This document shows, in pieces, positions 33,415 through 36,531 of a stretch of DNA of 55,890 bases. The notes under the pieces are model-generated. The model worked only from the letters and a program-made list of their open reading frames with translations, did not search any database and was not told where the DNA came from. Made by a program: the position numbers and the translations under genes. Origin of the DNA: Nitrososphaerota archaeon (lineage in GTDB: Archaea > Thermoproteota > Nitrososphaeria_A > Caldarchaeales > Calditenuaceae); contig JAWBQR010000009.1 of NCBI GenBank assembly GCA_038845265.1, positions 1 to 55,890 on the forward strand, given 5' to 3'. The stretch's first letter is position 1. Each line of letters starts with the position of its first letter.

Positions 33415-33840
33415 TTGGGTAGACCAGTAGATTATAAGTCTGCTCCTATAGATCCTGACTTTAAAAGCAAATTACCAAAGACAGGAGAACATAATGGACA
33501 TGCTGTGTGGGGGGAAGGTGTTCAGAGACCTGACGCCGAGGGTAAGCCATATCCTACAAAGCTCGGGATTCATGGCACGAACGTAGCAGTTGACTGGGAC
33601 TCATGCATTGCTGATGGCGCATGCATGGATGTATGCCCAGTAAGCGTATATGAATGGGCATTAAACCCAGGCAATTCAGGCTCAGGCAAAGACAGAGTAA
33701 TAGATCCGAACAAGGATAAAGAACTCTGGGAAAAGTATAGGACGGATAAGAGTGACCCTGTCAGAGAGTCTGACTGCATATTTTGTATGGCATGCGAGTC
33801 AGCCTGCCCGGTCCTCGCAATAAAAATCACGCCACCGTAA
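33415..33840 (+). CDS. zfx: Zinc-containing dicluster (7Fe-type) ferredoxin
   Basis: GEHNGH..., LGIHGT.VAVD, CIADGAC...CP and CIFCMAC...CP as in Sulfolobales Zn-ferredoxin. Confidence 0.85.
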   Translation: MGRPVDYKSAPIDPDFKSKLPKTGEHNGHAVWGEGVQRPDAEGKPYPTKLGIHGTNVAVDWDSCIADGACMDVCPVSVYEWALNPGNSGSGKDRVIDPNKDKELWEKYRTDKSDPVRESDCIFCMACESACPVLAIKITPP

Positions 33841-33925: not shown

Positions 33926-34210
33926 ATGAATATTGCGTATGCCCAGAAATTGATAGATGAGATGTATGGCGGTAGAGATAGAGCAAGAGGATTGGATAAG
34001 ACGGCTCTCTGGCTGGTTTCAGAGATGGGTGAAGTGGCAGACTCTCTGGTGAAGAATGACTTAGAATCTCTAAGAGAAGAAGTCTCAGACGTCTTAGCTT
34101 GGCTGTTAACCCTATGCAATGTATCAGGAATAGACCTAGAAACAGAATTTAAAAGAAAATATGGTAATGGCTGTCCTAGATGTAGGAATGTTCCATGTCG
34201 CTGTCCTTAG
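33926..34210 (+). CDS. MazG-like nucleotide pyrophosphohydrolase
   Basis: SEMGEVAD...EEVSD acidic metal motif; C-terminal CPRC...CRC. Confidence 0.85.
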   Translation: MNIAYAQKLIDEMYGGRDRARGLDKTALWLVSEMGEVADSLVKNDLESLREEVSDVLAWLLTLCNVSGIDLETEFKRKYGNGCPRCRNVPCRCP

Positions 34211-34422: not shown

Positions 34423-35394
34423 CTACCCTACGACTTCGACTCCAGGTCCGACACTCGACTCGATGCCCCAAAGACCCTCCTCACTCAGGGCTTTACTAAC
34501 TTCTTGAACCCACTCAGGCAATGTATTCACATATACTGTCGGGCCTGTCTGCATTGAATAATATGCTGGTATTCCCTCGCTTCTAAGCTTCTTAACGACA
34601 TTTATAACTTTCAAGCTCTCCGCATTCATAAGTATCAACCTGCCATGACCTGTCATCGTGACTGCATGGAGCTCGAGTGAGTCCAGCTCGACGAGCTCTC
34701 CAAACCTCTTGAAGTCGTTATCCTTTATCGCCTTAACTAGCTCGTCGCATCTTTTCTGAGCTGACTCAATACGGGCCCTAAAAAATGAGGATGTCTCAGC
34801 CTCTCTGTGTGCCTCCTCGGTTGAAGTCTTCATGAATAGGGGAACGATTATGAACCTAATATCGAAGTCCTTTTTAGTCGCAATCTTTACTGCGTAGCTA
34901 TCCTCATCGCTGTTTCCAGCATACCATCTTGCATACTCTCCAATTACTGATCTGCACGCTGAACCCGCTAAAAGCCTCGCGAGTCTCGAGATTAGTTTTA
35001 GGTCCCATCCAAACTTTTTTCTTAGTCCTGCAGCTTCATATGCTGCTGCAGCCAGGGCCGCTCCCGCCGCTGCCGAAAAGCCAAGTCCCTTCGCGTTCCT
35101 GATAGGTGAGTGATTAACTGAGTTTATCAAGCAGCAGTCGTTAATCCCCGCGAGTCTTCTAACCCTCTCTATCACTGTTATTACTCTCTCGAGCGCTCTG
35201 CCCCGTACCTCTTCTCCATTTATTAATAGTTTATCTGTCTCGAAGTCTCCGAACTCTACCGTAGTCGTCGTGTAGAGGCAGTCAGTATTGACTGATATGC
35301 TGTCATGGTAAGGTATTCTTAATTCCCAGTTTTTTAGTCCATGATACTTGATCAGTGCCTGCATCGTATATGCCTTCGCCGTCGCCTTACTCAC
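34423..35394 (-). CDS. GHMP-family mevalonate-phosphate decarboxylase homologue (haloarchaea/Chloroflexi PMD-like)
   Basis: KATAKA..QALIKYHG, PYHDSISV, GSACRS, DSL....TMTG, TGPTVYVNT; GTG start at 35394 preferred over 35433. Confidence 0.82.
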   Translation of the reverse strand: MSKATAKAYTMQALIKYHGLKNWELRIPYHDSISVNTDCLYTTTTVEFGDFETDKLLINGEEVRGRALERVITVIERVRRLAGINDCCLINSVNHSPIRNAKGLGFSAAAGAALAAAAYEAAGLRKKFGWDLKLISRLARLLAGSACRSVIGEYARWYAGNSDEDSYAVKIATKKDFDIRFIIVPLFMKTSTEEAHREAETSSFFRARIESAQKRCDELVKAIKDNDFKRFGELVELDSLELHAVTMTGHGRLILMNAESLKVINVVKKLRSEGIPAYYSMQTGPTVYVNTLPEWVQEVSKALSEEGLWGIESSVGPGVEVVG

Positions 35395-35476
35395 ATAATT
35401 ACCCAACCAAAGGCTTAATTTATTGATATGCAAGCCATGAAAAACACATATTACTGAATCTCACCTTCGAATCGCG

Positions 35477-35860
35477 ATGAGCAAGGATCCTGCCAGGATT
35501 TACTTCTCCCCTAAGATGACTGAACGTGAGAGAGCGGTTTTTGAGGCTGGGATTGCCCTCTCAACAATATTTAATCTGCTCCATGGAATGCCAGTTCCGA
35601 GGGATAGGAAGGCTGCCAGAATTCTTGAGAGGGCGATGGAAGAGGTAATTAAAACTCAGCCATATAGGAGAGAAGTAAGAATCAAGATACGTCACAGGGT
35701 TAGGAGGGGAGTCTATGGCTACGATGTCGCGAGAGGAGAGAATATCTACGCATCAGTCAAGGTTAAGTATGGCTCAGCAGAGGTTACCGGAGAGCTACGC
35801 TGGATAAAACGCTTACGCTATCCCCTGATGTATATTAAAGAAATTAAAAACAAGTATTAG
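35477..35860 (+). CDS. mptD: Archaeal dihydroneopterin aldolase family protein (MptD-like)
   Basis: TERERAVFEAGI, G.PV, LE.A.E....QP, C-terminal YPLMY. Confidence 0.75.
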   Translation: MSKDPARIYFSPKMTERERAVFEAGIALSTIFNLLHGMPVPRDRKAARILERAMEEVIKTQPYRREVRIKIRHRVRRGVYGYDVARGENIYASVKVKYGSAEVTGELRWIKRLRYPLMYIKEIKNKY

Positions 35861-35901: not shown

Positions 35902-36531
35902 ATGAGTATCAGTAGAGATTGTGTACTAGGTGTGGATCTGGCGGGGAGTGATAGGCGTCCGACAGGCATGTGCCTATTGTACAGGGACTATGCCTGCAGG
36001 TGCTGGATCGTTTATAGAGATGTGGATATAATACTCGCAGCTTTGGCTTATTTGCCGCGCGTAATCGCCATAGATGCTCCTCTCACCCTTCCTAGGGGTA
36101 GAAAGAGTCTGACGACTCGTGAGCCAATTCACTTTAGGAGCTGTGATTTAGAATTAAGGAGAAGAGGTATTAGATTCTTCCCAATAACGCTTGGACCGAT
36201 GAGAACATTGACTGCTAGAGGAATGCTGCTAAAGAAAGAATTGGAAGAGCTAGGATTCAACGTGATCGAGGTTTATCCGGGAGGGGCGCAAGACGTGTGG
36301 GGGCTTCCAAGAAAATCAAAAGATCTAAATATGCTCATCGATGGATTAAGATCTCTTGGGCTCAGAGGATTAAGGATGGATATGACCGGAGACGAGGCTG
36401 ATGCCGCAACATGTGCACTTGTCGGGCTTCTATACATTGACAAAAGATACGAGGCACTTGGAGACGTGGATGAAGGACAGATAATAATGCCTCTTCCTAT
36501 ATGCAATAAATCAGATAAACGATGCCTCTAG
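35902..36531 (+). CDS. DUF429 family protein (RNase H-like fold)
   Basis: GVDLAG, IAIDAPL, R.CD.EL, IEVYP, DA..CA. Confidence 0.78.
   Translation: MSISRDCVLGVDLAGSDRRPTGMCLLYRDYACRCWIVYRDVDIILAALAYLPRVIAIDAPLTLPRGRKSLTTREPIHFRSCDLELRRRGIRFFPITLGPMRTLTARGMLLKKELEELGFNVIEVYPGGAQDVWGLPRKSKDLNMLIDGLRSLGLRGLRMDMTGDEADAATCALVGLLYIDKRYEALGDVDEGQIIMPLPICNKSDKRCL

What the first reader, a model, noticed from the sequence alone, without database searches (positions are those of the whole stretch)
34423..35394. Haloarchaea-type phosphomevalonate decarboxylase homologue with catalytic Asp replaced by Gln
KYHG and PYHDSISV match, from recall, the haloarchaeal/Chloroflexi phosphomevalonate decarboxylase group rather than classical KYWG diphosphomevalonate decarboxylases, which is unexpected in a TACK archaeon. 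The conserved D of D(A/T)G(P/A) is Q (TCA ATG CAG ACA GGC CCG = SMQTGP), while the partner Lys and the GSACRS Arg remain. Loss of this Asp is known to turn such enzymes into 3-kinases (Thermoplasma mevalonate-3-kinase; engineered Sulfolobus mutants). The GHMP loop also reads GFSAAAG rather than a Ser-rich form. This may indicate a further variant of the mevalonate pathway.
Basis: partly seen in the sequence, partly recalled or inferred. Interest (0 to 1): 0.7.

Follow-up and report, generated by a model that had tools for sequence, protein, structure and literature searches.

The report
Mevalonate-pathway decarboxylase homologue lacking catalytic aspartate
A hot-spring archaeon's only candidate enzyme for a key step of membrane-lipid precursor synthesis carries glutamine where every characterised decarboxylase of its family has an essential aspartate, and so does a whole clade of related archaeal enzymes.

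Summary
Window 34423-35394 (-) encodes a 323-aa diphosphomevalonate-decarboxylase-family protein. Its SMQTGP motif aligns, Gln on Asp, with the catalytic (T)MDAGP of solved enzymes. It is not an error: Gln is present in 120 of 120 closest homologues and in 80 of 80 species-representative genomes, and the codon is unchanged in independent metagenome runs. The Gln proteins form one clade inside the KYHG / phosphomevalonate-decarboxylase (PMD)-like branch.

The genome has HMG-CoA reductase, mevalonate kinase, isopentenyl-phosphate kinase and IDI2. It has no AcnX, no UbiD and no second family member. In its class the Gln enzyme and AcnX exclude each other (35/36 and 0/36 against 0/39 and 37/39).

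Best reading (0.55): a working ATP-dependent PMD that uses an amide instead of the carboxylate. Sulfolobus D281N keeps activity according to PMC9254496. Main rival (0.25): a natural 5-phosphomevalonate 3-kinase with an unknown, non-homologous partner.

Complication: outside this class, 8 of 10 genomes tested carry the Gln enzyme together with AcnX, and the four euryarchaeal ones also have UbiD next to it. PMD homologues in these archaea are already published. I did not find the Asp-to-Gln change in print. It is a new variant of a known kind.

The parts
34423..35394 (-). Gene for the 323-aa DMD/PMD-family protein (GTG start at 35394; stop codon included)
   Evidence: ORF list. Pfam PF22700 + PF18376. 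Identical 323-aa cluster P0001. AF2 model with mean pLDDT 96.1. Best fold match is Anaerolinea PMD 6n0x/6n0y, TM 0.92-0.93.
34549..34551 (-). Codon CAG = Gln282, at the position of the catalytic Asp of DMD, PMD and MBD
   Evidence: Sequence. Alignments to 2hk2, 6n0x, 5v2l and 6n0z. Q in 120/120 homologues and 80/80 loci. Unchanged in independent runs.
35335..35349 (-). K16-Y-H-G-L20: His in place of the Trp of KYWG, and Leu where DMDs have Lys/Arg (N20 of Anaerolinea PMD)
   Evidence: KYHG in 120/120. Position 20 is L109/M11 of 120. Aligned to N20 of 6n0x and K20 of the 6n0z N20K mutant (entry title).
35056..35088 (-). Phosphate-binding (GHMP motif II) loop GLGFSAAAGAA, residues 103-113. S107 is invariant. 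F106 and G111 are typical of the Gln clade.
   Evidence: The role of the corresponding Ser (S106 of E. faecalis MDD) as a Mg ligand comes from PMC7414129 (passage).
34948..34968 (-). AGSACRS, residues 143-149, with R148, the counterpart of the carboxylate-binding Arg (R144 of the bacterial enzymes)
   Evidence: R in 118/120 and K in 2/120. Role of R144 from PMC7414129 (passages).
34807..34821 (-). T192-E-E-A-H196 at the start of helix alpha4. H196 aligns with H194 of Anaerolinea PMD (a PMD specificity determinant). E193 sits where DMDs often have Arg or Thr.
   Evidence: H in 120/120 and T in 119/120. Alignment to 6n0x (H) and the 6n0z H194M mutant (M). Helix 192-200 in the model.
34672..34674 (-). 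Codon for E241 (LELH). It is invariant in the Gln clade and N/S/K/R elsewhere. It is a clade marker and a candidate compensating carboxylate, but it lies in helix 228-247, which is not one of the helices said to border the active site.
   Evidence: E in 120/120; others N10/S2/D2, K4/A2/R2, S18/K14/R13. (LNLH or LSLH in six Asp-type relatives). Helix assignment. Helices alpha1, alpha2 and alpha4 border the site according to PMC7414129.

Best explanation
The gene encodes the enzyme that closes the lower mevalonate pathway of this hot-spring archaeon. Record titles of the closest homologues place the organism in Caldarchaeales.

**Proposed reaction.** It is an ATP-dependent phosphomevalonate decarboxylase. 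It takes (R)-mevalonate 5-phosphate made by mevalonate kinase and phosphorylates the 3-OH from ATP. It then eliminates that phosphate together with CO2 to give isopentenyl phosphate. Isopentenyl phosphate kinase converts this to IPP.

**What differs.** The active-site carboxylate is replaced by the amide of Gln282. The amide would orient the 3-OH as a hydrogen-bond acceptor, and it could hydrogen-bond to the leaving 3-phosphate as a donor. This clade also remodelled other positions: M11, F106, G111, E241, R215 and the loss of a fixed loop lysine.

**Shown:**
- family membership and fold;
- the Gln, its conservation and its single origin;
- PMD-type substrate determinants;
- the pathway inventory;
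- mutual exclusion with AcnX within the class.

**Inferred:** the substrate, the decarboxylase activity and the role of the amide.
For: 1. **Family and fold.** PF22700 + PF18376. Best NCBIfam model is PMD MvaD. AF2 pLDDT is 96.1. The best structural match is Anaerolinea mevalonate 5-phosphate decarboxylase, TM 0.92-0.93.
2. **Monophosphate-type determinants.** L20 (no Lys) and H196 align with N20 and H194 of Anaerolinea PMD, the two residues changed in the 6n0z N20K/H194M mutant. They read L109/M11 and H120 of 120.
3. **ATP and substrate residues kept.** K16, S107, S145, R148 and T192 are conserved.
4. **Own genome** (93% complete). HMGR, MVK, IPK and IDI2 are present. AcnX and UbiD are not found. 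There is only one DMD-family gene; the other GHMP genes are shikimate kinase and homoserine kinase.
5. **Class of 76 genomes.** The Gln enzyme is in f1 18/18, f2 17/18, f3 0/4 and f4 0/35. AcnX over cut-off is in 0/18, 0/18, 4/4 and 33/35. In f3 and f4, UbiD lies next to AcnX.
6. **An amide can work.** PMC9254496 states that SsoDMD D281N retained DMD activity while D281T and D281V became kinases (passage). A second natural amide clade exists: CPR-bacterial homologues have Asn at this position in 119 of 120.
7. **Short stem.** The Gln clade stem is 0.22 changes per site. The long MBD-like group has 0.51 and the degenerate paralogues 0.53-0.59.
Against: 1. PMC9254496 says the Asp is conserved in all characterised decarboxylases (DMD, PMD, MBD) and is missing only in the kinase M3K.
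2. D-to-A, D-to-T and D-to-V mutants are dead or kinase-only, and PtoMBD D309N and D309T lost activity.
3. The loop lysine that PMC7414129 describes as triggering phosphoryl transfer is not conserved in the clade.
4. Outside this class the Gln enzyme co-occurs with AcnX in 8 of 10 genomes tested. The four euryarchaeal ones also have UbiD beside AcnX. A merely redundant PMD would not be expected to be retained so widely.
5. The NCBIfam PMD score of 259.9 is far below the cut-off of 475.
6. No enzyme of this clade has been assayed, as far as my searches show.
Confidence: 0.55

Rival explanations
1. The protein is a natural 5-phosphomevalonate 3-kinase. It only phosphorylates the 3-OH of mevalonate 5-phosphate. 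The resulting mevalonate 3,5-bisphosphate is decarboxylated by an unknown, non-homologous enzyme, or breaks down thermally in hot-spring organisms. This would be a fifth variant of the mevalonate pathway.
For: - The catalytic Asp is absent, as in M3K, the only characterised non-decarboxylating homologue. SsoDMD D281T and D281V are kinases, and PtoMBD D309N and D309T are dead (PMC9254496).
- The ATP loop and Mg-binding Ser are kept.
- Co-occurrence with AcnX in 8 of 10 genomes outside the class, with UbiD beside AcnX in the four euryarchaeal ones, suggests a non-redundant role.
- The genomes that have the Gln enzyme but no AcnX are mainly those of this class. The window's own DNA is held in hot-spring metagenome runs.
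- A DUF371 gene of unknown function sits directly upstream on the same strand in 29 of 80 loci.
- The activity is so far known to me only as an engineered enzyme (title of Motoyama 2019, seen in reference lists).
Against: - No second DMD-family gene that could act as the bisphosphate decarboxylase was found in G000, in the 35 relatives that carry the enzyme (the one extra match is a 72-residue fragment) or in the 10 other genomes.
- DUF371 is absent from all 76 genomes of the class. It is present in control genomes that lack this enzyme.
- No conserved neighbour is shared across lineages.
- SsoDMD D281N kept decarboxylase activity.
- The loop lysine linked to phosphoryl transfer is also not conserved, which does not favour a pure kinase either.
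Confidence: 0.25
2. The protein acts on another substrate, or has another role such as a different hydroxy-acid phosphate or a regulatory kinase. The Caldarchaeales that lack AcnX would then convert mevalonate 5-phosphate by an enzyme not yet recognised.
For: - It co-occurs with AcnX in 8 of 10 genomes outside the class, four of them with adjacent UbiD.
- It is never found in a mevalonate gene cluster. Its neighbours are housekeeping genes.
- Several clade-specific invariant residues exist.
Against: - The PMD-type substrate determinants and the carboxylate-binding Arg are kept.
- It would leave 35 genomes with MVK and IPK but no middle step.
- The clade stem is short.
Confidence: 0.12
3. The protein is a catalytically dead relic or a binding protein.
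For: The canonical catalytic Asp and, in most members, the loop Lys are missing.
Against: - 55 invariant columns were found among 17 sequences that are as little as 48% identical to the window's protein. They include the nucleotide loop, S107, R148 and T192.
- There are no stops or frameshifts in 36 genome matches.
- Truly degenerate paralogues of the family look quite different (P0202, P0221, P0249, P0261).
Confidence: 0.04

Closest known systems
Phosphomevalonate decarboxylase (PMD, EC 4.1.1.99) of the haloarchaea-type pathway: haloarchaeal MvaD (NCBIfam NF040704) and Anaerolinea thermophila PMD (PDB 6n0x/6n0y)
   Same: - Same two-domain GHMP fold (TM 0.92-0.93).
- Same KYHG / PYHDSISV / T-E-x-x-H motifs as the haloarchaeal-type branch.
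- No Lys after the KYxG motif, and a His at the H194 position.
- Same genomic logic: MVK and IPK present, PMK absent.
   Different: - Gln replaces the catalytic Asp. The true haloarchaeal PMD P0138 has FSTDTGASV and Anaerolinea has LDAGP.
- The loop Lys/Arg before T192 is not fixed.
- E241, G111 and M11 are clade-specific.
- The NF040704 score of 259.9 is well under the cut-off of 475.
Mevalonate 3-kinase of Thermoplasmatales (PDB 4rkp; NCBIfam NF040848)
   Same: It is a DMD homologue that lacks the catalytic Asp and keeps the ATP site. Lack of the Asp is given as the reason it does not decarboxylate (PMC9254496).
   Different: - It is only a distant relative (E 2.7e-05 to 4rkp; NF040848 45.7 against a cut-off of 440).
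- By recall, M3K has Thr at the Asp position.
- M3K acts on unphosphorylated mevalonate and works with a homologous MBD, which is absent here.
Mevalonate 3,5-bisphosphate decarboxylase (PDB 7t71; NCBIfam NF040847) and the roughly 400-aa 'MBD-like' KYHG group
   Same: - Same superclade.
- The long MBD-like group is the nearest sister of the Gln clade in my tree (SH-aLRT 91, not starred).
- It shares G111.
   Different: - Those proteins keep the Asp (11 of 11).
- MBD needs the Asp and does not use ATP (PMC9254496).
- NF040847 scores 102.3 against a cut-off of 560.
Classical diphosphomevalonate decarboxylase (TIGR01240; PDB 2hk2, 3qt5, 6e2s)
   Same: - Same fold.
- TIGR01240 scores 197.2, above its cut-off of 171.35.
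- E 1.5e-44 to 2hk2.
   Different: - KYHG-L instead of KYWG-K/R, and E193/H196 instead of R/T and M. These differences fall at positions that bind the diphosphate.
- No PMK in the genome.
- Gln instead of Asp.
Engineered 5-phosphomevalonate 3-kinase (Motoyama et al. 2019; title only seen)
   Same: It is the activity that the main rival explanation proposes.
   Different: That enzyme was made from M3K by mutation. I could not read the paper, so no further comparison is possible.

Membership tests
DMD/PMD/MBD/M3K superfamily (GHMP-type mevalonate decarboxylase-like) | MVD-like N domain plus MDD C domain; two-layer alpha/beta GHMP fold | tested here: met
   PF22700 149 bits and PF18376 58.2 bits. 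AF2 pLDDT 96.1. Foldseek probability 1.00 to PMD and DMD structures.
Phosphomevalonate decarboxylase (NCBIfam NF040704 MvaD equivalog) | Score at or above the curated cut-off of the equivalog model | tested here: not met
   259.9 bits against a cut-off of 475. A true haloarchaeal member, P0138, scores 603.
Phosphomevalonate decarboxylase | Monophosphate-specific determinants: no Lys after KYxG (N20 in Anaerolinea) and His at the H194 position | tested here: met
   L20 and H196 align to these residues. The mutant entry 6n0z is titled N20K H194M. The columns read L109/M11 and H120 of 120.
Phosphomevalonate decarboxylase | Catalytic Asp in the D-(A/T)-G-(P/A) loop | tested here: not met
   Gln282. 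Q in 120/120 and 80/80. Asp in 18/18 short and 11/11 long KYHG representatives and in 87/87 KYWG representatives classed by an Asp at that column.
Phosphomevalonate decarboxylase | Pathway context: MVK and IPK present, PMK absent, and no alternative route for mevalonate 5-phosphate | tested here: met
   for G000. for its class.
Phosphomevalonate decarboxylase | ATP-dependent conversion of mevalonate 5-phosphate to isopentenyl phosphate + CO2 + Pi | not testable with these tools
   Needs an enzyme assay. No assay of a clade member was found in searches.
Classical diphosphomevalonate decarboxylase (TIGR01240) | Score above cut-off, diphosphate-binding Lys/Arg residues, and a PMK in the genome | tested here: not met
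   The score is met (197.2 against 171.35). KYWG-K is replaced by KYHG-L, and R/M by E193/H196. No further GHMP kinase is present beyond MVK, ThrB and shikimate kinase.
Mevalonate 3-kinase (NF040848) | Equivalog score; acts with M3P5K and MBD | tested here: not met
   45.7 bits against 440. No MBD-like second homologue. MVK is present.
Mevalonate 3,5-bisphosphate decarboxylase (NF040847) | Equivalog score; conserved Asp; ATP site lost | tested here: not met
   102.3 bits against 560. The Asp is absent. The nucleotide loop and S107 are conserved.

The most novel reading that the evidence does not exclude
The Gln clade is a natural 5-phosphomevalonate 3-kinase. It would define a fifth mevalonate-pathway variant: MVK, then a 3-kinase, then a non-homologous or non-enzymatic loss of phosphate and CO2 from mevalonate 3,5-bisphosphate, then IPK.

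The variant would stand alone in Caldarchaeales and run beside the AcnX/UbiD route in other archaea. The DUF371 gene, operon-linked in 29 of 80 loci, is one candidate for the missing step in Nitrososphaerales-type genomes.
Probability: 0.2. Interest if true: 0.85.

Novelty: new variant of a known kind. Interest (0 to 1): 0.62.

Why it matters
The aspartate is treated in the literature as the residue that separates decarboxylases from kinases in this family. PMC9254496 calls it conserved in all DMD, PMD and MBD enzymes.

Here a large, old archaeal clade replaces it with Gln. In at least 35 related genomes this protein is the only visible way to make isopentenyl phosphate, and therefore membrane lipids.

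- **If the enzyme decarboxylates,** the accepted role of the carboxylate (charge repulsion or carbocation stabilisation) needs revising. Annotation rules based on the Asp would fail.
- **If it is only a kinase,** a new step of archaeal isoprenoid synthesis is still missing.

Either outcome can be tested with one recombinant protein and commercially accessible substrates. The result also bears on how the ATP-dependent route replaced the AcnX/UbiD route. Lineages that carry both look like intermediates in that replacement.

Tried and rejected
1. **Sequencing error or misalignment.** Rejected.

2. **DUF371 as an obligatory partner.** Rejected for this organism. It is 0 of 76 in the class, and it is present in control genomes without the enzyme. 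It matches only uncharacterised PDB entries 3cbn and 7y7n. My paper search for 'DUF371' returned only DUF3715-type hits and told me nothing.

3. **Conserved neighbourhood or mevalonate gene cluster.** None found. Neighbours here are an MptD-like DHNA-family gene, DUF429, MazG and a ferredoxin. In the euryarchaeal loci they are TFB, SRP19, a PHP-domain protein, RFC and S8e.

4. **A homologous MBD-like partner.** Not found.

5. **E241 as a compensating carboxylate.** Could not be tested. The tools give no coordinates of the model, and the residue lies in a helix not listed as bordering the active site.

6. **Expression.** The only RNA-labelled runs holding the stretch are flagged 'probably DNA' and give short contigs, so this is no evidence of transcription. 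The Calditenuis paper's supplements gave only two KO rows with a baseMean of about 1.9, and file 2 could not be searched.

7. **Phylum-wide sample of 201 genomes.** Outside the class it gave 7 genomes with weaker matches (41-45% identity). I fetched 6, and all are Asp-type. The sample therefore held no Nitrososphaerales-type Gln members and added nothing on co-occurrence.

8. **Earlier findings of this scan.** Nothing found.

9. **Taxon names for the Asn-type clusters from cluster look-up.** None given. They came instead.
Full report
**What is there.** The minus strand of the window carries an ORF at 34423..35433. The GTG start at 35394 gives 323 aa. A database cluster of the same length and sequence exists (P0001), and homologues begin at the same place. 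Pfam finds the N and C domains of the diphosphomevalonate-decarboxylase family (PF22700 149 bits, PF18376 58 bits).

NCBIfam ranks the models as follows:

| Model | Bits | Curated cut-off |
|---|---|---|
| Phosphomevalonate decarboxylase MvaD | 259.9 | 475 |
| Diphosphomevalonate decarboxylase | 197.2 | 171.35 |
| Bisphosphomevalonate decarboxylase | 102.3 | 560 |
| Mevalonate 3-kinase | 45.7 | 440 |

HMMER alignments to four solved enzymes put Q282 on the catalytic Asp, query ysMQTGPtv against ftMDAGPnv.

**The Gln is real and old.** All 120 best homologues (49-100% identical) have Q in xS(M/L/F)QTGP and KYHG at the N terminus. So do all 80 best loci from a scan of one genome per species. The codon is covered without change by contigs of DNA runs from two other studies.

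Among representatives clustered at 50% identity, Q occurs only in the three full-length clusters nearest the query and in two fragments. The next KYHG relatives have Asp. In a 74-row maximum-likelihood tree (quick search), the 17 Gln sequences form one clade (SH-aLRT 99). The clade lies inside the KYHG superclade (100), which also holds a true haloarchaeal PMD (P0138, 603 bits on NF040704). The weakly supported sister (91) is a group of roughly 400-aa 'MBD-like' proteins.

Record titles of the Gln loci name these groups:
- Caldarchaeum, Calditenuis and Pelearchaeum;
- many Nitrososphaerales- and Nitrosopumilales-labelled MAGs, and Gagatemarchaeum;
- Methanocellales MAGs;
- a Methanosarcinales MAG;
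- Hydrothermarchaeota.

The window's own stretch is held in hot-spring metagenomes: 14 runs hold at least half of its words, across 9 studies in the listing.

**What else changed.** Compared with Asp-type relatives, the clade has several invariant or near-invariant residues of its own: M11, F106, G111, Y154, R215 and E241. Six Asp-type relatives from the same phylum read GLGFSASGFAA, (K/R)TDEAH, L(N/S)LHA and YS(I/M)DTGPSV.

The lysine of the beta10-alpha4 loop is K189 in this protein. PMC7414129 (passages) describes that lysine as reaching into the active site and triggering phosphoryl transfer. In the 120 homologues the column reads D57/E31/K10, and the neighbouring column reads S53/R23/T18/K14.

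The following are kept:
- K16;
- the nucleotide loop with S107;
- S145 and R148;
- T192;
- H196.

L20 and H196 align with N20 and H194 of Anaerolinea PMD. These are the two residues altered in the deposited N20K/H194M mutant. PMC9254496 says PMD specificity was changed to that of DMD by mutagenesis. This points to the monophosphate as the substrate. The AF2 model is very confident (pLDDT 96.1, pTM 0.93), and its best structural neighbours are the Anaerolinea PMD entries (TM 0.92-0.93).

**Pathway inventory.** The genome is 1.37 Mb in 34 contigs and 93% complete.

| Step or family | Result in G000 |
|---|---|
| HMG-CoA reductase | present |
| Mevalonate kinase | present, 242 bits |
| Isopentenyl phosphate kinase | present, 216 bits |
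| IDI2 | present |
| AcnX | no match |
| UbiD | no match |
| Other GHMP genes | shikimate kinase and homoserine kinase only |

The long ORF around the IPK gene is an antisense artefact. The Gln protein is the only visible candidate for turning mevalonate 5-phosphate into isopentenyl phosphate.

**Distribution in relatives.** The window's class holds 76 genomes in one order and four families.

| Family | Gln enzyme | AcnX over cut-off | UbiD |
|---|---|---|---|
| f1 (the window's own) | 18/18 | 0/18 | 1/18 |
| f2 | 17/18 | 0/18 | 10/18 |
| f3 | 0/4 | 4/4 | 4/4 |
| f4 | 0/35 | 33/35 | 32/35 |

- The one f2 miss is a genome 78% complete.
- Five f2 genomes have only sub-threshold AcnX hits of about 22 bits.
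- In f3 and f4, UbiD lies beside AcnX.
- In f2, UbiD is often multi-copy and is present without AcnX.

So within this order the Gln enzyme and the dehydratase/decarboxylase pair replace each other. These are related genomes, not independent events.

**The complication.** Outside the class the pattern differs. Of ten genomes reached through Gln loci, eight also have a full-scoring AcnX:
- Four euryarchaeal genomes out of the first five handles tested, each with UbiD next to AcnX.
- Four of five Nitrososphaerales-type genomes.

All ten, like G000 and its class, have only one strong family member. That rules out a Thermoplasma-style pair of homologous kinase and decarboxylase. The co-occurrence is compatible with an intermediate stage of pathway replacement, or with a back-up route that needs no Fe-S cluster or prenylated flavin. 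It is also what one would expect if the Gln enzyme did something the AcnX route does not do.

**Reading of the chemistry.** PMC9254496 (passages) says the following:
- The Asp is conserved in DMD, PMD and MBD but not in M3K.
- SsoDMD D281T and D281V became MVA5PP 3-kinases, while D281N retained DMD activity.
- PtoMBD D309T and D309N lost activity.

PMC7414129 (passages and section 7) proposes two roles for the Asp: it orients the 3-OH by a hydrogen bond (3.3 A), and it may stabilise the carbocation. It notes a metal ion nearby.

An amide can do the first job and, as a donor, could assist the leaving phosphate. It cannot supply negative charge. A second natural amide clade exists: 119 of 120 relatives of P0164, with CPR-bacterial names where names are given, read N-T-G-Q-D at this loop.

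Together with the inventory and the short stem of the clade (0.22), I put 0.55 on a working PMD. I put 0.25 on a kinase with an unknown partner or thermal decay of the product, 0.12 on another substrate or role, and 0.04 on a dead protein.

**What is already known.**
- PMD homologues in Nitrososphaeria, Nitrososphaeria_A, Bathyarchaeia and Lokiarchaeia are reported in PMC11052028 (passages).
- Pmd plus Ipk is annotated for Calditenuis in PMC12979851 (passage).
- Neither passage mentions the Asp.

My searches found no description of a Gln at this position and no assay of a clade member (plus passages of PMC6107057 and PMC9385802). The library lacks most subscription journals. I could not read Motoyama 2017, Motoyama 2019 or Thomas 2019, so the claim of novelty is limited to what I could search.

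**Verdict.** This is a new variant of a known enzyme kind, and it poses a clear, cheap experimental question.

Noticed in passing
L067:5556-5993 (+), and the same position in 28 further loci (for example L102:5534-5998, L098:5089-5511): A DUF371 (PF04027) gene of about 140-155 aa lies directly upstream of the Gln-type gene on the same strand. It is often overlapping or only a few bases apart. This holds in 29 of 80 loci, all Nitrososphaerales/Nitrosopumilales-type or unnamed archaeal MAGs. DUF371 is absent from all 76 genomes of the window's class, and it matches only uncharacterised PDB entries (3cbn, 7y7n).
   Followed up: partly
Proteins P0164 and P0306-P0424: A large clade of KYWG-type DMD homologues has Asn at the catalytic Asp position and Asp four residues later (F-T-x-N-T-G-Q-D). 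Where names are given they are Levybacteria, Roizmanbacteria and Parcubacteria. Asn is present in 119 of 120. This is a second natural family without the canonical Asp.
   Followed up: partly
Proteins P0202, P0221, P0249, P0261, P0269: These KYHG-branch paralogues have a degenerate nucleotide loop, Arg motif and Asp loop (for example IRYRG ... FSVERNGGV). They look like non-catalytic copies. They sit next to Asp-type PMD-like sequences in the tree.
   Followed up: no
Handles G076-G079 (reached through L068, L074, L083, L093): These are small genomes (1.0-1.4 Mb) whose records are titled Methanosarcinales, Methanocellales or Hydrothermarchaeota. They carry both the Gln-type enzyme and an adjacent AcnX-UbiD pair, that is, two possible routes from mevalonate 5-phosphate to isopentenyl phosphate.
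   Followed up: partly
Handles G002, G004, G009, G010 and G036: Some genomes of families f1 and f2 hold 5-8 UbiD-family matches but no AcnX. This suggests an expanded set of prFMN-type decarboxylases for other substrates.
   Followed up: no
Window 35477-35860 (+), 35902-36531 (+), 33926-34210 (+), 33415-33840 (+): The immediate neighbours are a DHNA-family (PF04038) protein transcribed divergently, a DUF429 protein, a small MazG-type pyrophosphohydrolase and a 4Fe-4S ferredoxin. None belongs to the mevalonate pathway.
   Followed up: partly
L007:1489-3303 (-) against L007:2326-3405 (+): The isopentenyl phosphate kinase sits at the end of a 604-aa open frame. The upstream 345 residues are antisense to a 359-aa gene on the other strand and look like a spurious extension. 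The kinase proper is about 259 aa.
   Followed up: partly
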